Positions 16,685 through 64,000 of a stretch of DNA of 64,000 nt are shown here, piece by piece (positions within the stretch are counted from its first letter, which is position 1; every line of letters starts with the position of its first letter). The notes under the pieces were generated by a model that was not told the DNA's origin, did no database searches, and saw only the letters and a list, made by a program, of their open reading frames with translations. Origin of the DNA: Candidatus Moraniibacteriota bacterium (GTDB lineage Bacteria; Patescibacteriota; Minisyncoccia; Moranbacterales; UBA1568); the NCBI GenBank assembly GCA_052034935.1, contig JBPOIB010000006.1:537-64536 (forward strand), written 5' to 3'. The translations under genes and the position numbers were made by a program.

Positions 16685-18631
16685 ATGGCCATCCGCTCGA
16701 TTTTCTACACTTCACTCATCGCCACTCTCCTCCTCACCCCTCTGGATACGCTTGCTGCGGTAATCTTGAGCGAGGTTCAAATCGAGGGAGAAAAAGCAGC
16801 CGATGAATTCATCGAACTTTATAATGATAGCAACGATTCGGTAAACCTCTCCGGTTGGAGTCTGCGGCGAAAAAGTGCAGGTGACACAACGGCAAAAGGC
16901 AGCTCACTCAAAACATTTGGCAGTAGCGACGCCATTCCTGCTCACGGCTACTTTCTCTGGGCGAATAGCAGTAGCCTGTTCAAAGACTTGGCCGATACAA
17001 CGACCGGATCAAGCCTCTCCGACAACAACAGCCTCGCACTGTACGACAAAACGGGAGTGCTGATTGATTCCCTCGCCTGGGGCACGGGCCATGTACTCCC
17101 CTTTTCCCCAGCCTCATTCGATAATCCAGACAAAAACAAAAGTTTTACCCGCGACCTCGACACACTCGATTGGAGTGAGACCGACGAAACTTCACCCACA
17201 AATTCCCGTGGCGAATCATTCCCAACCGAAGAAGAACCGCCAGCGCCAGTCGGACCCGGACTTCAGTCCATACTTATCAATGAAGTTTTTCCCAATCCGA
17301 AGGAAAAAGATGATGCCGGGGAATTTATCGAGCTTTATAATCCTACCGACAAGATAGTTGACCTCTCTGATTGGGAAATCCGCGATGCATCAGCAAGTGG
17401 AAAATATATCTTCCCAAGCGGCAGCACTCTCCCCTCTCTCGGATATCTCGTCATCTCTGATAAAGAGTTCTCACTCTCGCTCAATAATTCCGACGAGACA
17501 GTATCGCTGTACGATCAATCAGGGCGACTGGTACACCAGGTAAAGTACGAGAAAACAAAAGAAGGTATCTCGCTCAATCTGGTCGGAAGCGGACTGCGGG
17601 GTGCGAGAAAGCCGACCCCCGGCAGCGCAAACAGCGAAAATATGAATCCGACTACCCGTGAGCGCGTCCCAAAAGAGGGCTACCGTGATTTCGCTATTGA
17701 ATTCCACGCGCGAGGCAAGGATAGCGACGGGGATAGTCTCAAATTCACCTGGGACTTCGGCGACGGCCGCAAGAGCTACAAAGAAAACACGACCCATAAA
17801 TACGAAAAGACTGGTCGTTACGTAGTCACCCTCACGACCGACGACGGCATCGATACAACAACTGAGAGCTTTGAGATCAAGATTGCAAAGTACGAAGCAC
17901 CGAAACTCCGCATCGTCGCTTTTGTGCCGAATCCGAAAGGCAAAGATAGCGACTTCGAATGGATCGAAATCGAGAATCGCGGCAAGAAGTCCGTTAATCT
18001 GAATGGCTTCAGTATCGCGACCGGTACCAAGAAAAAATCCGTGAGCAATCACCCGATCAGCAAAGACCTCATTATTCCTGGGAAATCAGTACGACGTATC
18101 ACGCGCAGCCATTCGCTCTTCACCCTGGGTAATGAACGCGGCATCATCGAGCTCCGTGCCCCGGACGGAGAAGTCATTCACGACGTAAAGTATAAATTCG
18201 ATAGATCACTCGACGATGATGTCGTCTTGAAGAAAGAAAAAGGGAAAGCGCTCACGCTCGTCACTCTACCTTCTGAAGCACAGAAATCTGAAGCTGAAAC
18301 TCCTGAGGAAAATCCCGATGCCAACACTCCATCAGCAGAAGAGACTATGCTAACGCCTCCACCAACCGAAGAGTCCACTGAAGCACCAGAAGCGCAAGCA
18401 CAACCGGCAGGTGATGCGAATGATACTCCGAAAGAAAGTTTGTCTAAAACTATTTCACCGTCTACAGGACTTCCACTTTCCGGTATTTCCTTCCTGGCCC
18501 GATTTTTCGGCGTGGAGCGAGGAGAAAACAAAAACATCCTCGCGCGGTGGGAGGATGTCTTGAATACCGTTTTGAACGAGTGGCTCGCCGATACGGCAGT
18601 GGCGACTAGGCGGCCGGAGGAGTCGGAGTAG
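16685..18631 (+). CDS. Secreted/surface protein with lamin-tail domains (LTD), a PKD domain and a Pro/Glu/Thr-rich C-terminal tail.
   Basis: Signal peptide. Repeated EFIELYN...LSGW(S/E)(L/I) LTD signature three times. FTWDFGDGRKSYKENTTHKYEKTGRYVVTLTTDDG PKD signature. Confidence 0.7.
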   Translation: MAIRSIFYTSLIATLLLTPLDTLAAVILSEVQIEGEKAADEFIELYNDSNDSVNLSGWSLRRKSAGDTTAKGSSLKTFGSSDAIPAHGYFLWANSSSLFKDLADTTTGSSLSDNNSLALYDKTGVLIDSLAWGTGHVLPFSPASFDNPDKNKSFTRDLDTLDWSETDETSPTNSRGESFPTEEEPPAPVGPGLQSILINEVFPNPKEKDDAGEFIELYNPTDKIVDLSDWEIRDASASGKYIFPSGSTLPSLGYLVISDKEFSLSLNNSDETVSLYDQSGRLVHQVKYEKTKEGISLNLVGSGLRGARKPTPGSANSENMNPTTRERVPKEGYRDFAIEFHARGKDSDGDSLKFTWDFGDGRKSYKENTTHKYEKTGRYVVTLTTDDGIDTTTESFEIKIAKYEAPKLRIVAFVPNPKGKDSDFEWIEIENRGKKSVNLNGFSIATGTKKKSVSNHPISKDLIIPGKSVRRITRSHSLFTLGNERGIIELRAPDGEVIHDVKYKFDRSLDDDVVLKKEKGKALTLVTLPSEAQKSEAETPEENPDANTPSAEETMLTPPPTEESTEAPEAQAQPAGDANDTPKESLSKTISPSTGLPLSGISFLARFFGVERGENKNILARWEDVLNTVLNEWLADTAVATRRPEESE

Positions 18632-19616: not shown

Positions 19617-21080
19617 ATGCCTACATGGTTCACTTGGAAACGCTTTTTTGTAGTGCTCTTCCTCATCATTATTGCTGCCGGAGCGGGCGCAGCCTATTTC
19701 GCCAAGGACCATACCCAGGAGTTCGCCCTCCAATCCCTTGCCATCGTGACTAAAGTCTCCAAATTCCTCCCCATCGAGGAGGACACAAAGAAGGAGATCG
19801 AGGCAGTAAAACAGCTCGCCGATTTCGCCCTGAAAAAAGATGGGGTGCAGCGCACCTATCTCGTTTTGCTCCAGAATAACCATGAGCTTCGGCCGGGCGG
19901 CGGTTTCCTCGGCCAGTACGCGATTGTGAAGATCAAGGACGGCGAAGTCGTCTCGCTCTTTGTCGAGGATGCCAATCTTCTCGATCAGCGCATTACTGTC
20001 AAGGTCACGCCTCCGTATCCACTCACTAGAAAGCTTGGCTTGAAACGCTGGGAGATGCGCGATTCCAACTTTTCCCCTGACTTCCCGACCAATGCCGCGA
20101 AAGCTGAGTACTTTTATCGGCTCGCCGGCGGCGGACAGAAATTTGATGGCGTTATCGCCGTGAATGCCACCATCCTCGATGACGCGCTCGCCATCACCGG
20201 ACCGATTTCAGTCAGCTATGAGACGTTCGACTACGTCAATGGCAAGTTCGCTCCAAGGATGACCTCCGAGACATTTATGAGTGAGAACGGCGTACTGCGC
20301 CTAGAAGAAGCGGTCGAAAAGAAATTTCTCGTCACCGAAAGCAAGGACATCGAAGTACCGGCCGAGCTCAAACAGAAGCGCAAGAATGTTATGAAAGCTC
20401 TCGCGGCCGAGCTCACAAAACGACTCGCCAGCGTTGATAACATTCCGAAAGCGATCCAGCTCGCCCAAAGTGAGCTCGCTGAGAAAAACATTCAAATCTT
20501 CTTCAAGGACCCAGCACTTCAGACCATCGTTACCGGCGTGAAGTGGAATGGGGCTACCAACACCGACTGGACCAATGATTATCTCATGCTTGTCGACGCC
20601 AATCTCGGTGCCTTGAAGAGTGATGCTTTTGTCGACCGGCGCATCAATTATGAAGTCGACTTCACTGGGGAAAAGCCGATGGCGACCATGACGCACACCT
20701 ACAAGCATCGCGCGACTTACGGCGATTGGCGGACGAGCGACTACCATACGTACCTCCGCGCCTATGTTCCGAAGGGCTCCAAGCTCATCGAACGCAAGCT
20801 CGTCGGTTACCCGCTCACCGATGAGGCCTTCAATAAGACGTATTTCGGTGTCTTCGTCGACGCCGTCATGAATCGCGAAACACCAGGCATGATCAAGTAC
20901 GAGCTCCCTGATACGATCAAAGAGGAAGGCTACCAGCTCATGATCCAGAAGCAGTCCGGCGTCGGCACTATCCCGGTCACTATCACCATCAAGAAAAAAG
21001 ACGGCTCCGTGTTCACACAGTCTCTCGATCTAAAGAAAGATATCGTTCTCGGCTTCAAAGAGGTAGAAGAACGAAAATAG
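19617..21080 (+). CDS. DUF4012-like envelope-associated protein with an N-terminal TM anchor.
   Basis: N-terminal hydrophobic helix. Conserved NHELRPGGGFLG and GGGQKFDGVIAVN motifs. The DUF4012 assignment is from memory. Confidence 0.5.
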   Translation: MPTWFTWKRFFVVLFLIIIAAGAGAAYFAKDHTQEFALQSLAIVTKVSKFLPIEEDTKKEIEAVKQLADFALKKDGVQRTYLVLLQNNHELRPGGGFLGQYAIVKIKDGEVVSLFVEDANLLDQRITVKVTPPYPLTRKLGLKRWEMRDSNFSPDFPTNAAKAEYFYRLAGGGQKFDGVIAVNATILDDALAITGPISVSYETFDYVNGKFAPRMTSETFMSENGVLRLEEAVEKKFLVTESKDIEVPAELKQKRKNVMKALAAELTKRLASVDNIPKAIQLAQSELAEKNIQIFFKDPALQTIVTGVKWNGATNTDWTNDYLMLVDANLGALKSDAFVDRRINYEVDFTGEKPMATMTHTYKHRATYGDWRTSDYHTYLRAYVPKGSKLIERKLVGYPLTDEAFNKTYFGVFVDAVMNRETPGMIKYELPDTIKEEGYQLMIQKQSGVGTIPVTITIKKKDGSVFTQSLDLKKDIVLGFKEVEERK

Positions 21081-53886: not shown

Positions 53887-53961
53887 CCATTACCCTCTTC
53901 ATTGACGAACGGGCATTTTTTCGCTAATCTAGAGCCACTGTTTGACAGCGTTTTTTTGTTT

Positions 53962-54034
53962 GGGTGCATAGCTCAGTCGGTAGAGCAGTGGCCTCTTAAG
54001 CCAACGGTCGTAGGTTCGATTCCTACTGCACCCA
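53962..54034 (+). tRNA. tRNA-Lys (anticodon CTT).
   Basis: Acceptor GGGTGCA, anticodon loop CTCTTAA, T-arm GTAGGTTCGATTCCTAC. Confidence 0.85.
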
Positions 54035-54071
54035 CCCCCAAGAGCCTTCTTTGCAATCAAGTATCTAGAGT

Positions 54072-58724: not shown

Positions 58725-59091
58725 ATGAAAATGTGATTACTATCTTATGAATTTACCTCTCTGAGAGGGCGGATTTTGAACAAAAAAAGCCCGCTTCCGC
58801 GAACTCCGACTGCCCTCATCCTTGCCCCACTAGTCTACGCGGAAAACCCCAACCTGTCAATCGGTTTTGAAGAACACAAATCACCCGCAAAATACCCTCA
58901 TTTTAGCCTTTATCCAAGCCTCAAATCTCTCCCTTTCTACCATTGACTTTTCTACGTTTTTATGCTAGTATAGACTGTTGTGAAATACGGGTCGGTACCC
59001 GACACCACAACTGAGCGGCAGTACGTCGCTCACGGGTACCTTTACAATCAACCTCACACTCAACTGATCGCAAGATCAAGGAGATCAATCA

Positions 59092-60110
59092 TGGCAATCG
59101 ACATGTTCAAAGGGATGTTCAAGGAGATCAGTGTTCTGGAGATCCTGAACTTGTTCCAGATGTCCAGTATGAAAGGGCTGATGGAAAAGATCGGCATCGG
59201 CGGCAAGAGAAGTGTCAGCAATGATCCTTCAGCCGATGCAAGCACTACCGCCAACGAAGGCGGCAAGGGCAACATCGACGAGCACAATGCGCTCATCGCC
59301 ATGGCCGAAGCCCATTTTGCCGGCAGCGGTGCTCCGGCGAAACTCACGATCACCCGTAGCTGCTTCAGGAAACTCATGGCTATCTTCAAGCTCCTCCGCG
59401 AACAAGGCAAGAGCGGCGGGGCGGAGAAACTGATGCATATCATCGGCCATGAGAGCCACTTGCAGGGTACGGCCGTCAGCCAACGGACCAGCGGTCCCAA
59501 GGGTCAAAAGCCCGAGGGAGAAGCGCCGGCTCCGAGGATTGACATCCACAACGTGCGGGAACGTACGAACCCGGCGGGACAACTCATCATCCGTTTCCTC
59601 ACCGACATCGAGCCCCAAGAAGCCGTCGACCTCCTCACGGCCGCGTCCATCACGGACAACGGCAAGGACAAGACGGCGGCGGCGGCAAAGGCGGCGAAAG
59701 AAAAACTTGATGAAGGCTGGCAAGCCATCGCGAAGTGGTGGTATGACGGGAATCGCGACCTGCAGATCCACAGTGCCTGGGCCAGAATCGTCCTCGCTGA
59801 CGACAAGGCTATGGAACGGATCCTCAAAAGCGACAGAGCTCTCGAACTCTGGAACTCGTTCCAACTCGAGAGCAATGACCCCGTACGGGCCCGACGCTAC
59901 ATCGAACAGCTTGAAGGCTACATCTGGGAACAGGTCAATGCCCATCAAGACGCCTCGACCGAAGAACCGAAGCAAGTTCCGACATCTTCGCCCAGTCGCT
60001 TCCAATGGCTGCCGCGCAAGGTACCGTGGATGTTCATCGTCTGGGGTACCGCCGGTTTCTTCGTCCTCCTCACCATCCTGACTCAACACCTCAAGTCCCT
60101 CGGGAACTGA
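59092..60110 (+). CDS. Hypothetical protein with a C-terminal TM anchor, high GC.
   Basis: AAGGAGATCAATC lies upstream of the ATG (MAIDMF). Single C-terminal hydrophobic helix WMFIVWGTAGFFVLLTIL. No recognisable domain. Confidence 0.5.
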
Positions 60111-60136
60111 GGGGGCAACAACTTCAAGGAGATTCC

Positions 60137-61684
60137 ATGATTCAGCAACAGAACCCCCAAACCTCGCTCCTGCGAGCAGTGGGGCCGACACTCCGGGTCA
60201 ACTGGTTCGCCAGAGCCTGGGGCGGATCGACCGGGCTGCGTACCGCCCTCTGGTACGTTTTCGGCGGCCTCATCGCCCTCATCGCCATCGCGGTGTGGGC
60301 AAAGACGATGGGCTGGACAGCCATACCCTGGACCATCGGCGGCGGAGCACTCATCGCGGCCATCGTGATGGGGACGCCGTTCGCTCTCGGAGCCACTCCC
60401 CCGATCTGGTTCGCGGGGTTCATCCGGCATCAAGCCGGTGGAGACCCCTGGCTCTCGGCGGAAGATGGCGTCACGGGAGGCAATGACTATGTGAAGGGAC
60501 TGTGGGGGTTCTTCAAGAGCCTCCTCTTCTACACCCCGCTGGTTTTCTTCGGTATCGGCTTCTTCCGGATCGAAGGCAACCTGCTCGGCGTCATCCCCTT
60601 CCTCGGTGTTTCGCTGGCGCTCATCATCCACTACGCCGGCACGCAGGGCACGTTCTTCCGCAATCTGGTGGTGCTCATCTATACGGGCATCATCCTGTGG
60701 ATCCTCGGGACCTGGATTCCCCCGGTCGCCGAGCGGCAGCAGCAATTCACTCACTGGTGGACGCTGAACGTGTCGCGCAATGCGGCCGACCAAGCCAGCG
60801 ACGAGCAGAACGCCGACCAGCACGCCAAGAACGTGCTGGACGCCGACAACTGCTTCGCTGGCCTGAAGAAGATGGTCCAGCCCACCCAGGAAGACAAGGA
60901 CCGCTGTGAAGCGCTCCGGAAGTCCGTCGGCAGTTACGTCTACAAGAACGCTGCCGAACAACAGCGGGCCGAAGCCAATGCGAGGCTGCGCCAAGCGCGC
61001 GTCGACGCAGCGGCCGCCTGCTGGAAGGGAATCACTGGTAGCTCCAAGCCGGAAGCGATCGCCCAGTGCGAAGCGCTCGAAAAGGAGATCGACCAGCCTC
61101 CGGTCACAGCGACACCGTCTGCTCCCCCGCCCCCACAAGGGACGACGGGTGCCGGTGGAACCACCCCTACGACCACGACCACCAGCAGCGAAGGGCCTTG
61201 GAACTGCGAAAAGACGTACCGGGAACTCGAGTTCGATCCGCGCCTGAAAGCAGGCCGAGTCGACCTCGAACCCCTCCCTCCGGGAAGGTACGAGATCACC
61301 GTCACCGGCAAGCGGCAACAGCCCTTCTACGTGATGAACAGCGTCGGCCGAGCCGAGCATGCTGCAACGTGTCTGAGCGACCCCGAGGGCAACCTCGAAG
61401 GCTGCACGGACCCACGCGGCACGCCGATCGACTGGAAAGCCGATCCGGCGAAGCTCGCCCATTGGCCCGGTGAGGGCAGACTGCCCGACCCGAGCCGGGC
61501 TCATGGCACCGTGATGGCGCATATCTGGGGACACATCATCCCCGTCGGAAGCGCCGTTCGCATCGGTACATCGGAAGAGCGCCCAATCGCACTCGACCTG
61601 AACGCCGATCGCTACCCGCTGAACTGGAGCGGCACCGGAGCATTCGCTGTGAAGATCAAGCAATGTGAGGCGACACGCACCTAA
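60137..61684 (+). CDS. Hypothetical polytopic membrane protein (about 6 TM) with a C-terminal Cys-containing extracytoplasmic domain, high GC.
   Basis: AAGGAGATTCC lies upstream of the ATG (MIQQQN). Hydrophobic helices through residue ~230. Pro/Thr/Gly linker (PPPPQGTTGAGGTTPTTTTT). Confidence 0.5.
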   Translation: MIQQQNPQTSLLRAVGPTLRVNWFARAWGGSTGLRTALWYVFGGLIALIAIAVWAKTMGWTAIPWTIGGGALIAAIVMGTPFALGATPPIWFAGFIRHQAGGDPWLSAEDGVTGGNDYVKGLWGFFKSLLFYTPLVFFGIGFFRIEGNLLGVIPFLGVSLALIIHYAGTQGTFFRNLVVLIYTGIILWILGTWIPPVAERQQQFTHWWTLNVSRNAADQASDEQNADQHAKNVLDADNCFAGLKKMVQPTQEDKDRCEALRKSVGSYVYKNAAEQQRAEANARLRQARVDAAAACWKGITGSSKPEAIAQCEALEKEIDQPPVTATPSAPPPPQGTTGAGGTTPTTTTTSSEGPWNCEKTYRELEFDPRLKAGRVDLEPLPPGRYEITVTGKRQQPFYVMNSVGRAEHAATCLSDPEGNLEGCTDPRGTPIDWKADPAKLAHWPGEGRLPDPSRAHGTVMAHIWGHIIPVGSAVRIGTSEERPIALDLNADRYPLNWSGTGAFAVKIKQCEATRT

Positions 61685-61872
61685 ACCGTCATCGAACGGT
61701 AAGGCAAACGAAACGGGCTGGAGAGCAATCTCCCGCCCGTTTTTTCTTTATCCCGTTAGAAGGAAAACTACTGGGCTAATACTCTTTTTCAAACTCTGTC
61801 GTTCAAAAAACAGATGTCACGGAAAAAATACCACCTCAAGATTTCTAACGGGATTTCTATACCCTCGCTCGT

Positions 61873-63900
61873 TTAGAAGAACCCCACGACGAGCCGAACC
61901 AGTACGATCGAGGCCAGCGAAACCGTAATCCCAATGATTGAGTACTTCACGATATTCTTTCCGGTATCGATACGACTCTCGTCCCCGGCTGCGGTCAGGT
62001 ACATGAAGGCTCCGATGACGAGCATGATGAGCGCGATGACACCGATGACCGAGAGGATAAAGTTGACCACACCCATCGTCATGTCGAGAAGTGATGGTCC
62101 GGCCGGAACTAACGGCGTGATGATACCGAGCATGGTTCCAATCTCTCGGAAGAACATCGGAGCGGCGATGCCGAGTGCAAGGCCGATGAGCGCGCCCAGG
62201 ATGCATTTCTTGCCCAGTTCCACCCGGCCCGTATCGCCGGCTGAGGTGATATAGAGAAAGGCACCGATGACGATGAAGATGATAGCGAGGATAGCAATCA
62301 GGTTCTGGAGCTCGGTCAGAAATTTCGCGATGAGTGCCGGAAGGTCCGCCGTAAAGAGCGGGTTCGGATACTTGACCGTCACCGGAGATGATGGCGGACC
62401 GGGTGGAACAGGAGGAACCACTTTCGGCGTACAGCAATCCATCACCGGACCGCAAGAAAGATCGAATTCTGTCTCTTCAGTCGTCCCGTCACAAGCAACC
62501 CGACACACTCCAGCACCACCGGATGTTCCTCCGACGCAAGCACCAACCGGAGGAGGGGCCACCTTGGGTGTGCAGCAATCCTCTACACCACAGGCGAAGT
62601 CGAATTCTGATGTTTCTGTAGCAGGATTACAGGCTGGACGGCACACTCCAGCGGCGCCGGACGTTCCACCCACGCAGGCAGCAGGGGCAGCGGCAGCACA
62701 GATACTTCCGTCCCAAGCTGATCCGGCGATACAGGTAGCATCCGACGAAGCTGTATCAATGATAGCCCCATTATTCCAGAGATCAAACCGTACGGTGGCA
62801 CCATAGCTCAAAGTACGCGTCTCGCCAGCCGAAGAAGCCGCTAGAGAAAAAGCGACCGCGTCCTGATCAACCCGCGGATTGACCGGAGCAGGAATGTTCC
62901 AACTTACTGAAATATCGCAGGCGCTCTGGCCCACCGGAATATCGCAACCAAACGGGACAGTGAACGTCGGTGATCCCGGCGGTCCGTACGAGACACAACA
63001 ATAGGTCGATCCGCCCCCGCAGGTCGCAGGGATATACGTCCCATCGACCGTCTCAGCGACATCCGGAGGAGTACACGAGAATCCACAGGTCCCCATATTG
63101 CCGCTATCGGCGCTCCGACAGGCGCTGCCAGGCACCGGAACGGGGGCAGCACACTGGCTCCCATCCCAGACATCGCTTCCGACGCACTGAGCACTCGACG
63201 GTTGCATGCTATACAACGGACCATCCAAAAGCTCGAGGATGTTCAATCCATGACTCAAAACGACGACTGTTCCCGGAGAGGATGCTGCACCGGAAACCGA
63301 ACTGCCGTCGTGGACAATCGATGGATTGAGCGGATTGGAAATGGACCAGCTGATAGTGATCGAACAATTGCTTCCGCCAGTGGGGATACTGCAGTTCGCC
63401 GGAACATTGAAGAAATCAAGGATTGGTTGGCAGCAGACCGCCCCGCCGAAACAAGCAGTGTCGGCAGCGCCGCCACCCACGCAGGCCGCGGGCAACTGGC
63501 AGGTGCCGTTTCCGCCCGAGCAGGCGGCACCGATGTTCGGCGGCGGGAGGCAGCAGATCTGTGCAGGCTGGCCACAAGATTCGAATGACTGAACATCGCC
63601 ATTATAGCCGCAGACTGGTTCACCCGGAAAACGAGTGTAGAGATCGCTCCGACACAGGCCGCCGGCATTCGTACAATCATTGACGCTTTGAGCCATTTGG
63701 CAACAAATCAAGGACCCGTTCGAATTAAACGGACAGGTGTGGGTAAAAATCGGATTTTCCCCTGCACCACAGCCAGAAATCCAACCCGGACGACACGCAG
63801 CGCCGATATCTTCACAGGCCTGAGCACTCACGCCATTCGGCGTAAACGTGATAAAAGCAAGTGCCAGAATAATGCTCGTGAAAAAATTCTTGAAGCGCAT
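61873..63900 (-). CDS. Secreted Cys-rich modular protein ending in two tandem T4SS-pilin-like (TrbC/VirB2-type) helix-loop-helix domains.
   Basis: Signal peptide. About six repeats of a C..G..C...CC.P module. Two CxIPxxxxxCxIxxSWxIxxPxNP modules. C-terminal motifs IVIGAFLYITSAGDTGRVELGKK and LVIGAFMYLTAAGDESRIDTGKN, each between two hydrophobic helices. Confidence 0.6.
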   Translation of the reverse strand: MRFKNFFTSIILALAFITFTPNGVSAQACEDIGAACRPGWISGCGAGENPIFTHTCPFNSNGSLICCQMAQSVNDCTNAGGLCRSDLYTRFPGEPVCGYNGDVQSFESCGQPAQICCLPPPNIGAACSGGNGTCQLPAACVGGGAADTACFGGAVCCQPILDFFNVPANCSIPTGGSNCSITISWSISNPLNPSIVHDGSSVSGAASSPGTVVVLSHGLNILELLDGPLYSMQPSSAQCVGSDVWDGSQCAAPVPVPGSACRSADSGNMGTCGFSCTPPDVAETVDGTYIPATCGGGSTYCCVSYGPPGSPTFTVPFGCDIPVGQSACDISVSWNIPAPVNPRVDQDAVAFSLAASSAGETRTLSYGATVRFDLWNNGAIIDTASSDATCIAGSAWDGSICAAAAPAACVGGTSGAAGVCRPACNPATETSEFDFACGVEDCCTPKVAPPPVGACVGGTSGGAGVCRVACDGTTEETEFDLSCGPVMDCCTPKVVPPVPPGPPSSPVTVKYPNPLFTADLPALIAKFLTELQNLIAILAIIFIVIGAFLYITSAGDTGRVELGKKCILGALIGLALGIAAPMFFREIGTMLGIITPLVPAGPSLLDMTMGVVNFILSVIGVIALIMLVIGAFMYLTAAGDESRIDTGKNIVKYSIIGITVSLASIVLVRLVVGFF

Positions 63901-63911
63901 GGTGTTTTCTA

Positions 63912-64000
63912 CAAGAAATTTGCAATCTGCCGGACCAGGACGATGGAAGCGAGAGCGATGGTGATGCCGATGATCGAGTATTTCGCGATCTTCTTCCCGG
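63912..64000 (-). CDS. 3' end of a further paralogous gene with the same C-terminal pilin-like domain (continues beyond the window).
   Basis: Nucleotides 63930..64000 are near-identical in pattern to 61880..61960 (ggtgatgccgatgatcgagtatttcgcgatcttcttcccgg versus gtaatcccaatgattgagtacttcacgatattctttccgg). Confidence 0.4.

What the first reader, a model, noticed from the sequence alone, without database searches (positions are those of the whole stretch)
61873..64000. Cys-rich modular secreted proteins ending in two tandem T4SS-pilin-like domains; at least two paralogs in tandem
The 675-aa protein has a signal peptide. Its ectodomain is built from about six repeats of a C..G..C...CC(Q/L/T)P module and two Ig-like CxIPxxxxxCxIxxSWxIxxPxNP modules.
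Two C-terminal helix-loop-helix units carry the motif (I/L)VIGAF(L/M)Y(I/L)T(S/A)AGD....GK. From memory this matches the TrbC/VirB2-type pilin signature common in CPR and Gram-positive conjugation systems.
A pilin domain is normally N-terminal and single. A C-terminal tandem pair fused to a large disulfide-rich ectodomain is unusual. A second gene with the same C-terminus starts at 63912 and runs off the window.
This could be a surface appendage or adhesin system that displays a Cys-rich head on a pilin-like membrane stem.
Basis: partly seen in the sequence, partly recalled or inferred. Interest (0 to 1): 0.65.

Follow-up and report, generated by a model that had tools for sequence, protein, structure and literature searches.

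The report
Pilin-anchored cysteine-rich surface protein
The last gene of a pilin gene cluster in an ultra-small Moranbacteria (CPR) bacterium encodes two fused secretion-system pilin units carrying a large disulfide-rich head of defensin-like and antibody-like modules. It is most likely an adhesin shown on a pilus or on the cell surface to contact a host cell.

Summary
Window 61873-63900 (minus strand) encodes a 675-aa protein with a signal peptide, six 6-Cys modules each ending in CC, two Ig-like 4-Cys domains, a Pro-rich linker and two C-terminal helical hairpins.

Each hairpin alone passes Pfam's own threshold for T4SS_pilin (PF18895).

One claim fails. The upstream gene shares only the double-pilin part. 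A read-assembly contig identical to the window's end shows it is a 203-aa "bare" double pilin with no Cys-rich head.

The gene closes a VirB2-like pilin array: single pilins, then a bare double pilin, then the headed double pilin. The array lies next to NusA in Candidatus Moranbacteria. Such arrays are published for Patescibacteria. I found no report of the tandem pilin or of a fused head.

The 6-Cys module resembles beta-defensins and big defensins in cysteine framework, in profile hits to PDB sequences, in a high-confidence AF2 model and in its single Foldseek hit. The evidence is coherent, but each piece is weak.

Best reading: a minor or tip pilin-adhesin, fast-evolving in the head and conserved in the stem. 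No T4SS machinery lies nearby, and pilus assembly is not shown.

The parts
61873..63900 (-). Whole gene: 675-aa headed double pilin, stop codon 61873-61875
   Evidence: ORF list; Pfam T4SS_pilin with two stretches; five full-length homologues at 34-58% identity
63823..63900 (-). Signal peptide, residues 1-26 (MRFKNFFTSIILALAFITFTPNGVSA|QA)
   Evidence: Hydrophobic segment 6-24; small-residue VSA site by inspection; the same layout in all homologues
63430..63816 (-). Modules M1 (29-67), M2 (76-117) and M3 (127-157): 6-Cys modules with the C-x6-C...CC framework and GxC before the second Cys
   Evidence: Regex and spacing table; module alignment; module profile hits beta-defensins and big defensins in PDB sequences
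63145..63423 (-). Ig-like domain 1 (residues 160-252, 4 Cys)
   Evidence: AF2 beta-sandwich with pLDDT about 75-79; Foldseek Ig-tandem hits with E about 1e-4 and probability 0.98-1.0
62995..63120 (-). Module M4 (residues 261-302), C-x10-C-x3-C-x17-C-x6-CC
62689..62973 (-). Ig-like domain 2 (residues 310-404, 4 Cys), 42% identical to domain 1
   Evidence: AF2 pLDDT 70-83; pairwise alignment
62431..62676 (-). Modules M5 (409-443) and M6 (455-490), 72% identical to each other
   Evidence: AF2 of M5 with the 40-module alignment gives pLDDT 93.5. Its only Foldseek PDB hit is helianthamide, a beta-defensin-family peptide. Two short-read contigs break here, at 62616 and 62629.
62365..62430 (-). Pro-rich linker (residues 491-512)
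   Evidence: Sequence TPKVVPPVPPGPPSSPVTVKYP; AF2 pLDDT about 26, so probably disordered
62125..62364 (-). Pilin unit 1 (residues 513-592): invariant NPL motif, then helices 519-552 and 557-590 with the loop TSAGDTGRVELGKK
   Evidence: Pfam T4SS_pilin 42.6 bits on its own; helices in AF2; 58-78% identity to homologues
61876..62091 (-). Pilin unit 2 (residues 604-675): helices 604-636 and 641-674 with the loop TAAGDESRIDTGKN
   Evidence: Pfam T4SS_pilin 36.1 bits on its own; 69-81% identity to homologues; 33% identical to unit 1
63909..64000 (-). 3' end of the upstream gene, a 203-aa bare double pilin (P0045). The stop codon is 63909-63911, and 8 nt separate it from the next start codon.
   Evidence: L030 is identical to the window and gives the whole gene. 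Pfam T4SS_pilin 68 bits in two stretches.
61706..61740 (.). Hairpin between the two convergent genes, with an A-run on one side and a U-run on the other; a likely bidirectional terminator that ends the pilin operon
   Evidence: RNA fold -24.2 kcal/mol, z = -3.85, 0 of 200 shuffles fold as well. The simple terminator scan did not list it.

Best explanation
This is the terminal gene of a VirB2-like (Pfam T4SS_pilin) pilin array in a Candidatus Moranbacteria (CPR/Patescibacteria) chromosome.

PROPOSED MECHANISM
- The product is exported by Sec and its signal peptide is cut.
- The two C-terminal helical hairpins insert in the membrane. Their basic loops (..AGDxxR..GK) face the cytoplasm, so the N-terminus, the inter-unit linker and the C-terminus are outside.
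- The roughly 465-residue acidic head is therefore extracellular. It holds six disulfide-knotted beta-defensin-like modules and two Ig-like domains, joined to the pilin stem by a Pro-rich linker.
- By analogy with VirB2/TraA pilins, the covalently linked pilin pair is extracted from the membrane and built into a T4SS-type pilus as a pseudo-dimer. In those pilins both termini lie on the outer face of the filament.
- Because of its bulky head it would be a minor or tip subunit. It would act as the host-contact adhesin, the role VirB5 has in Gram-negative systems.

WHAT IS SHOWN
- The domain anatomy, membership of the pilin family, the place of the gene in the array, the conservation pattern and the taxonomic setting.

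WHAT IS INFERRED
- The membrane topology, disulfide formation, incorporation into a filament, the tip or minor role, and adhesion.
For: PILIN IDENTITY
- Both units pass Pfam's gathering threshold alone, at 42.6 and 36.1 bits against 26.6.
- Four of 46 family members also hit TrbC/VirB2 PF04956, best E = 2e-9.

ARRAY
- The same gene order recurs: 3-5 single pilins of 100-150 aa, then a bare double pilin of about 200 aa, then a headed double pilin.
- It is seen in the window plus L030 and in L001-L005, L007 and L033. The other Moranbacteria loci show variants, in which the single double pilin itself carries a short head.
- The array is always upstream of NusA.
- The gene is operon-final: 8 nt separate it from the upstream stop, and a strong hairpin follows it.

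LINK TO T4SS
- In L015 and L019 the first gene of the array is a T4SS_pilin-SLT (VirB1-like lytic transglycosylase) fusion.
- 13 of the 15 Moranbacteria listed in the part of Table S1 of PMC12102498 that I read encode VirB4.
- VirB2-like arrays of 2-11 genes are described in 383 Patescibacteria assemblies. One such array is essential in Southlakia.

STEM CONSERVED, HEAD VARIABLE
- Against five homologues, the double pilin is 60-76% identical and the head 30-56%.
- NusA next door is 89-92% identical where the whole headed pilin is 47-58%.
- Module number varies from 1 to 11 across relatives.
- A plain membrane anchor would not be expected to be the best-conserved part.

HEAD LOOKS LIKE AN ADHESIN STALK
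- It contains Ig-like domains and compact 6-Cys modules.
- It is acidic rather than cationic: 10 K+R against 39 D+E.
Against: - No T4SS machinery (VirB4, VirB6, VirD4) is found among the 10 largest ORFs of the window, and none among the annotated or scanned genes in the up-to-10-kb flanks of related arrays. Their neighbours are a TPR protein, a teichoic-acid-type transferase, a solute-binding protein, TypA and NusA.
- No Patescibacterial T4SS pilus has been observed. The literature calls it a possibility.
- The AF2 full-length model is poor (mean pLDDT 55, pTM 0.26) and says nothing about assembly.
- A 465-residue head on a two-position subunit may be hard to fit anywhere in a filament except its end.
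Confidence: 0.55

Rival explanations
1. It is a membrane-anchored surface adhesin that never polymerises. The tandem pilin units serve as a four-helix membrane anchor, or as a docking piece at the base of the T4SS channel or pilus, and the head projects from the cell surface.
For: - Four strongly hydrophobic helices.
- No assembly machinery nearby.
- The bulky head is awkward for packing in a filament.
- 6-Cys modules also occur on other anchors: the lipoprotein P0132 and the N-terminally TM-anchored P0131.
Against: - The stem is the most conserved part, with unit 2 at 69-81% identity. A mere anchor is usually the least constrained part.
- The gene always sits in a pilin array directly after a bare double pilin with the same stem.
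- The invariant NPL motif and loop residues suggest specific contacts.
Confidence: 0.3
2. The head is an effector rather than an adhesin. The defensin-like modules would act as tight-binding inhibitors or toxins against host enzymes or envelope, as helianthamide and the tick carboxypeptidase inhibitor do, either displayed on the pilin or released from it.
For: - The module profile's best PDB-sequence hits are beta-defensins, big defensins and the carboxypeptidase inhibitor TCI.
- The only Foldseek hit is the acidic alpha-amylase inhibitor helianthamide (PMC6835510).
- Relatives P0134 and P0132 pass Pfam's Defensin_beta_2 threshold.
Against: - There is no sign of a cleavage site between head and stem.
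- The modules are interleaved with Ig-like domains and vary in number like spacer repeats.
- The head is acidic, so it is not a classical membrane-active defensin.
- The window's own modules give no Pfam defensin hit.
Confidence: 0.1
3. It is an artefact: a chimeric or mis-assembled ORF, a pseudogene, or a chance Cys-rich reading frame.
For: - Two short-read contigs break inside the M5/M6 repeat at 62616 and 62629, so module copy number there could be mis-assembled.
- The exact 675-aa product is not on record in the protein collection.
Against: - Full-length homologues come from six independent assemblies with the same order of parts.
- 40 of the 44 ectodomain cysteines are invariant.
- L029 and L030 together cover the gene at 100% identity.
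- The frame is open and has a proper signal peptide.
Confidence: 0.02

Closest known systems
VirB2-like pilin arrays of Patescibacteria (Quinonero-Coronel et al. 2025, PMC12102498; the essential pilin array in the Southlakia epibionticum T4SS locus, Wang et al. 2023, PMC10633639)
   Same: - Tandem, sequence-divergent PF18895/PF04956 pilin genes in a CPR chromosome.
- A monoderm setting with no relaxase context.
- The same Pfam family.
   Different: - The array is not next to virB4. It lies beside NusA.
- It contains covalently tandem (double) pilins.
- Its last gene carries a roughly 465-aa Cys-rich head.
- Neither feature is mentioned in those papers, as far as term searches of their texts show.
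- The published arrays are mainly in Saccharimonadia and Microgenomatia. This one is in Paceibacteria/Moranbacteria.
VirB5/TraC-type minor pilin (tip adhesin) of Gram-negative T4SS pili
   Same: The proposed role: a minor, pilus-associated subunit that mediates target-cell contact and is encoded with the major pilin.
   Different: - There is no sequence or fold relationship.
- VirB5 is a soluble helical protein, not a VirB2 fusion.
- The FEMS review states that VirB2 and VirB5 are not found among T4SSs of Gram-positive bacteria, with the Patescibacteria systems as the one exception it names.
- The analogy is functional only, and it is inferred.
Beta-defensins, big defensins and other beta-defensin-fold peptides (helianthamide, platypus DLP-1, tick carboxypeptidase inhibitor)
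   Same: - A six-Cys framework ending in CC, with GxC before the second Cys.
- A small beta-sheet in the AF2 model.
- The module profile's best PDB-sequence hits are these proteins, with all six Cys in register in the four alignments printed.
   Different: - This is a bacterial protein.
- The modules are repeated 6 times in one chain (1-11 times in relatives) and fused to a membrane pilin.
- The head is acidic.
- Each E-value is marginal (0.03-6).
- The window's own modules fail the Pfam models.
- The disulfide connectivity is unknown.
- The literature places trans-defensins in animals only.
Mbov_0395 family pilin-like conjugal transfer protein of Mycoplasma ICEs (NCBIfam NF045849)
   Same: A two-helix pilin-like unit of a monoderm conjugation system. 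Residues 606-673 match 68 of the 80 profile positions.
   Different: - The score of 32.7 bits is below the 40-bit cut-off.
- That family has a single unit and no head.

Membership tests
Pfam PF18895 T4SS_pilin | Profile score at or above the curated gathering threshold (26.6 bits) | tested here: met
   61 bits for the whole protein with two stretches. Unit 1 alone scores 42.6 bits and unit 2 alone 36.1 bits.
Pfam PF18895 T4SS_pilin | A secreted protein whose mature part is a hairpin of two hydrophobic helices joined by a short polar loop | tested here: met
   Signal peptide plus hydrophobic segments. AF2 helices at 519-552/557-590 and 604-636/641-674. Here the hairpin is doubled and preceded by a large head.
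T4SS pilin (functional sense) | Encoded with, or in a genome that has, T4SS machinery (VirB4, VirB6, VirB3...) | tested here: not met
   None among the 10 largest window ORFs, and none among the annotated or scanned genes in the up-to-10-kb flanks of related arrays. Presence elsewhere in this genome could not be tested. 13 of the 15 Moranbacteria listed in the part of Table S1 of PMC12102498 that I read have VirB4.
T4SS pilin (functional sense) | Polymerises into an extracellular pilus | not testable with these tools
   This needs microscopy or biochemistry. It has not yet been shown for any Patescibacterium.
Pfam PF04956 TrbC/VirB2 | Profile match | tested here: not met
   The window protein gives no hit at E <= 1. 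Four of 46 relatives hit, best E = 2e-9. Precomputed weak hits exist in array neighbours.
Patescibacterial VirB2-like pilin array (PMC12102498) | Two to eleven pilin genes in tandem or separated by one non-pilin gene | tested here: met
   Four consecutive pilin genes of 125, 136, 203 and 675 aa in the window plus L030. Orthologous loci have 4-7.
Patescibacterial VirB2-like pilin array (PMC12102498) | Paralogs strongly divergent (the paper reports a mean of 25% identity) | tested here: met
   Unit 1 against unit 2 is 29-33% identical. Units from the arrays are 18-61% identical to unit 1.
Beta-defensin / trans-defensin (Pfam PF00711, PF13841) | Six-Cys framework C-x(4-8)-C-x(3-5)-C-x(9-13)-C-x(4-7)-CC | tested here: inconclusive
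   M3 (6,5,9,5) fits. M5 and M6 (10,3,12,4-5) come close, apart from a long first loop. M1, M2 and M4 have longer loops.
Beta-defensin / trans-defensin (Pfam PF00711, PF13841) | Profile score at or above the gathering threshold | tested here: not met
   The window's six modules give no hit at E <= 10. Modules of relatives give E = 0.005-0.007. Relatives P0134 (25.8 bits) and P0132 (23.0 bits) pass the 22.2-bit threshold of Defensin_beta_2.
Beta-defensin / trans-defensin (Pfam PF00711, PF13841) | Small antiparallel beta-sheet fold | tested here: inconclusive
   AF2 of M5 with 40 module sequences gives pLDDT 93.5 and four short strands. The only Foldseek PDB hit is helianthamide, with TM 0.56, rmsd 1.3 A over 28 columns and E = 0.94. 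Eight of the 12 PDB-sequence hits of the module profile have a beta-defensin fold. A shuffled control gave no hit.
Beta-defensin / trans-defensin (Pfam PF00711, PF13841) | Disulfide connectivity C1-C5, C2-C4, C3-C6 | not testable with these tools
This needs mass-spectrometric disulfide mapping or a solved structure.
Ig-like beta-sandwich domain | Fold match to Ig/FnIII-type domains | tested here: met
   AF2 pLDDT 70-83 for residues 160-250 and 312-403. Foldseek hits to titin and PTP-delta Ig tandems have E about 1e-4 and probability 0.98-1.0. There is no Pfam match.

The most novel reading that the evidence does not exclude
The 6-Cys modules are true beta-defensin-fold (trans-defensin) domains in bacteria, a fold so far assigned to animals only. 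CPR bacteria string them together as the head of a covalently tandem VirB2-like pilin that caps a T4SS-type pilus in a monoderm and works as its host-recognition tip. That would give a first prokaryotic trans-defensin-like family (by homology or by convergence), and a first candidate tip adhesin for the still-hypothetical Patescibacterial T4SS pilus.
Probability: 0.25. Interest if true: 0.85.

Novelty: new variant of a known kind. Interest (0 to 1): 0.6.

Why it matters
T4SS-linked pilin arrays are essential for the epibiotic life of the one Patescibacterium tested genetically. Reviews name them as the first hint that a monoderm T4SS may build a pilus. Nobody knows what such a pilus binds.

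A conserved array-terminal gene that fuses a pilin stem to a fast-evolving, disulfide-stabilised head offers a concrete candidate for the host-recognition part. It can be tagged, raised against, or sought in filament preparations.

The tandem pilin is also a new building plan for VirB2-type subunits.

Separately, a beta-defensin-like module family in bacteria would bear on the origin of trans-defensins, which are currently thought to be animal-only.

Tried and rejected
SEARCHES THAT FOUND NOTHING
- An exact-sequence look-up of the 675-aa protein found no record.
- Pfam and NCBIfam gave no match for the ectodomain or for the two downstream genes.
- The window's six modules scanned one by one against Pfam gave no hit at E <= 10.
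- The pilin-unit profile against all PDB sequences gave no hit.

TOOLS NOT AVAILABLE

RESULTS OF LIMITED USE
- Foldseek with the full-length model returned only Ig hits, so it says nothing about the helical stem.
- The simple terminator and promoter scan gave nothing above background. The hairpin was found by eye and by folding.
- DNA direct repeats inside the gene are short and weak, so the modules are old duplications.

LITERATURE
- Searches for cysteine-rich pilins in Patescibacteria, for Moranbacteria pilins and for bacterial trans-defensins returned nothing relevant.

IDEAS CONSIDERED AND DROPPED
- A second Cys-rich paralog upstream, which L030 disproves.
- A cationic antimicrobial defensin function, because the head is acidic.
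- An origin in Undibacterium or Bdellovibrionales, as some MAG labels suggest. Synteny and the NusA matches place all these contigs with Moranbacteria.
Full report
1. WHAT IS IN THE SEQUENCE

The feature is a single open reading frame on the minus strand, 61873..63900, 675 aa, with an ATG start. Its parts, in order, are:
- An N-terminal hydrophobic stretch (residues 6-24) ending in VSA|QA, which reads as a Sec signal peptide (by inspection).
- A mature ectodomain (27-490) holding 44 cysteines. That is 9.5% Cys against 0.5% in 24 other long ORFs of the window.
- Six modules with six cysteines each, always ending in CC. They lie at 29-67, 76-117, 127-157, 261-302, 409-443 and 455-490.
- Two 4-Cys domains, about 160-252 and 310-404.
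- A Pro-rich linker (491-512) and an invariant NPL motif.
- Two helix-loop-helix units (513-592 and 604-675), 33% identical to each other.

2. THE C-TERMINAL UNITS ARE PILIN-FAMILY DOMAINS

Pfam T4SS_pilin (PF18895) matches with 61 bits in two stretches, against a gathering threshold of 26.6. Each unit scored alone still passes, at 42.6 and 36.1 bits. NCBIfam gives a sub-threshold hit to the Mycoplasma ICE 'Mbov_0395 pilin-like conjugal transfer protein' (32.7 bits against 40).

The window protein does not hit canonical TrbC/VirB2 (PF04956). Four of 46 relatives do, with a best E of 2e-9. Two further tests were negative:
- A profile of 30 units found no solved pilin by sequence.

Membership in PF18895 is therefore established. 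The link to VirB2 rests on Pfam, on relatives, and on the structure-based annotation reported in the literature.

3. THE UPSTREAM GENE IS NOT A SECOND CYS-RICH PROTEIN

The window ends inside an ORF whose last 29 residues resemble the tail of the 675-aa protein. A read-assembly contig, L030, is 100% identical to window 62629-64000 and runs 1507 nt further. It shows three upstream genes:
- A 203-aa double pilin (P0045), made of a signal peptide, a short NP(I/L) segment and two pilin units. It has no Cys-rich head.
- A 136-aa single pilin with one Cys pair.
- A 125-aa single pilin.

All three are PF18895 members. Only 8 nt separate the upstream stop codon (63909-63911) from the ATG at 63900. A strong hairpin follows the gene, between it and the convergent downstream gene (-24.2 kcal/mol, z = -3.85). 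The headed pilin is therefore the last gene of the operon.

4. RELATIVES AND SETTING

Only five full-length homologues were found among 5.8 billion clustered proteins, at 34-58% identity. A further one, P0126, appeared among 1.84 billion representatives.

Their contigs show the same order of genes:
- several single pilins;
- a bare double pilin;
- the headed double pilin;
- two unannotated genes on the opposite strand;
- NusA, pyrophosphatase, trigger factor and ClpP.

A scan of species-representative genomes returned 25 loci. Most are labelled Candidatus Moranbacteria or Moraniibacteriota. Some are labelled Bdellovibrionales, Saccharibacteria or Fimivivens, which I take to be mislabels. NusA lies downstream in 17 of the related loci. 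A home-made pilin HMM found such an array in nearly every locus.

The head varies widely across relatives:
- It ranges from a single 6-Cys module in proteins of 240-300 aa to eleven modules in P0005.
- It occurs with or without Ig-like domains.
- Of the 120 best double-pilin clusters, 94 are bare and 26 carry one or two modules.

The window protein is therefore one of the most expanded members of a clade-wide family.

No T4SS ATPase or channel gene is found among the 10 largest window ORFs. None is found among the annotated or scanned genes in the up-to-10-kb flanks of related arrays either. Two observations still tie the arrays to T4SS biology:
- In L015 and L019 the first array gene is a pilin-SLT (VirB1-like) fusion.
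- 13 of the 15 Moranbacteria in the part of Table S1 of PMC12102498 that I read encode VirB4.

5. WHAT THE HEAD IS MADE OF

The full-length AF2 model, built with six sequences, is poor overall (mean pLDDT 55). It does give two beta-sandwiches with pLDDT 70-83 and four long helices. Foldseek against PDB returns tandem Ig domains such as titin and PTP-delta, with E about 1e-4 and probability 0.98-1.0.

All 40 modules from the six proteins align with conserved C, GxC, C, C and CC positions. The evidence that the module is beta-defensin-like is as follows:
- AF2 of module M5 with that alignment gives pLDDT 93.5 and four short strands.
- The only Foldseek PDB hit is helianthamide (TM 0.56, rmsd 1.3 A over 28 columns, E = 0.94). 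It is an acidic sea-anemone amylase inhibitor of the beta-defensin family (PMC6835510).
- The module profile searched against all PDB sequences returns 12 hits at E <= 10. Eight are proteins I know to have a beta-defensin fold:
  - beta-defensin 106 (E = 0.032);
  - platypus DLP-1 (0.065);
  - a human beta-defensin (0.069);
  - four big-defensin chains (0.1-0.9);
  - bovine BNBD-12 (6.1).
- A ninth hit is a chain deposited as 'carboxypeptidase inhibitor' (1.4). I take it to be the tick inhibitor TCI.
- All six Cys align in register in the four alignments printed.
- A control profile in which the non-Cys residues of every module were shuffled found nothing at E <= 10. The signal is therefore not the cysteine spacing alone.
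- Single modules of relatives hit Pfam Defensin_beta_2, Defensin_beta and a clip-domain family at E = 0.005-0.014.
- Two relatives pass the Defensin_beta_2 gathering threshold. They are P0134 (four modules plus a single pilin) and P0132 (a two-module lipoprotein).

Against this:
- The window's own six modules give no Pfam hit.
- Each E-value is marginal.
- The disulfide connectivity cannot be read with these tools.
- The head is acidic, with 10 K+R against 39 D+E.

I therefore call the module beta-defensin-like and do not file it as a defensin.

The module family is rare. Only 17 proteins reach E <= 0.001 among 1.84 billion representatives. They include four more pilin fusions, two lipoproteins and a TM-anchored protein.

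6. HOW IT MOST LIKELY WORKS

The basic residues in both inter-helix loops point to a cytoplasmic loop. That places the N-terminus, the inter-unit linker and the C-terminus outside, so the head is extracellular.

In solved VirB2/TraA pili both termini lie on the outer surface and the loop lines the lumen. This is established knowledge of F- and T-pilus structures. A covalent pair could therefore fill two neighbouring positions and hold its head outward.

Four features fit a minor or tip pilin that carries a host-binding head:
- The head is large.
- The gene is last in the operon.
- A head-less twin sits immediately upstream.
- The stem is 60-76% identical to homologues and the head 30-56%, while the neighbouring NusA is 89-92% identical.

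I give this reading 0.55. The main rival is a non-polymerising, membrane-anchored adhesin or a base component (0.3). A defensin-like effector role (0.1) and an artefact (0.02) are less likely.

7. COMPARISON WITH WHAT IS KNOWN

VirB2-like pilin arrays are already described in Patescibacteria: 441 arrays of 2-11 genes in 383 assemblies. One array is essential in Southlakia. This locus is a member of that kind.

I did not find the following in those papers or elsewhere in the searchable library:
- the tandem (double) pilin;
- a large Cys-rich and Ig-like head fused to it;
- the conserved graded order of the array;
- the beta-defensin-like nature of the modules.

The literature places trans-defensins in animals only. 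Absence from a partial library is not proof of novelty.

8. VERDICT

The 'second Cys-rich paralog' does not. This is a new variant of a known kind, with an unexpected module family attached.

Interest is 0.6. All functional claims are inferred from sequence, predicted structure and gene context.

Noticed in passing
window 58980-60110 (+) and 60005-61684 (+): Two unannotated genes lie between the pilin operon and NusA, convergent on the operon. One is 376 aa with a C-terminal TM helix. The other is 559 aa with several N-terminal TM helices and a Cys-containing C-terminal domain. They are syntenic in related loci but evolve very fast: 32% identity where NusA is 92%. Neither has a Pfam or NCBIfam match. 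The two ORFs overlap by 106 nt, so the true start of the second is probably later.
   Followed up: partly
window 60791-60864 (-): ARAGORN calls a tRNA-Lys(CTT) inside the 559-aa ORF. Rfam's tRNA model does not find it at the gathering threshold, and another tRNA-Lys(CTT) exists at 53961-54037. It is probably a false positive.
   Followed up: partly
L015 8819-9904 and L019 7921-8961: The first gene of the pilin array in two other Moranbacteria is a fusion of an N-terminal T4SS_pilin hairpin and a C-terminal SLT/lysozyme-like (VirB1-type) domain. This is a second kind of pilin fusion, and it links the arrays to T4SS-type cell-wall remodelling.
   Followed up: partly
L002 5035-7590, L003 4542-7019, L014 5014-7614, L033 3913-6483: A TPR-repeat protein of about 825-866 aa lies immediately upstream of the pilin array in the closest relatives. 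More distant arrays instead follow a solute-binding protein and TypA/BipA. It may be an assembly factor or merely a neighbour.
   Followed up: no
window 62616-62629 (module M5/M6 region): Two short-read contigs from the same run (L029 and L030) end here and overlap by only 14 nt. M5 and M6 are 72% identical in protein. The copy number of this module pair could be mis-assembled in short-read data.
   Followed up: partly
L030 551-961 and orthologues (for example L002 9046-9381, L003 8932-9345): The single pilin just before the double pilins always carries one Cys pair in a conserved N-terminal motif (C.xGYDDxKGxCIPNTTGL). The array thus shows a graded series: no head, a mini disulfide loop, a bare double pilin, then the large head.
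   Followed up: no
P0127, P0128, P0130 (hits of the module profile): Some non-pilin proteins are built almost entirely of the same 6-Cys module. P0128 is 1289 aa with 19 modules separated by Thr-rich mucin-like linkers. P0127 is a 422-aa Lys-rich putative lipoprotein with 9 modules that hits Pfam Granulin. Their source organisms are unknown.
   Followed up: no
record titles of L004, L005, L007, L008, L009, L013, L017-L019, L025, and the source name of P0003: Contigs that share this Moranbacteria-type synteny are labelled 'uncultured Bdellovibrionales', 'Candidatus Saccharibacteria', 'Candidatus Fimivivens' or 'Undibacterium sp.' in public records. These are probably taxonomic mislabels of MAGs.
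   Followed up: no
window 60001-62000: G+C rises to 0.61 here, against 0.51-0.58 in the rest of the window. The rise coincides with the fast-evolving 559-aa gene.
   Followed up: no
window 16685-18631 (+) and 19617-21080 (+): Other surface-type proteins typical of CPR are present: a 648-aa protein with three lamin-tail domains and a PKD domain, and a DUF4012 protein. The window also holds 11 confirmed tRNA genes.
   Followed up: no
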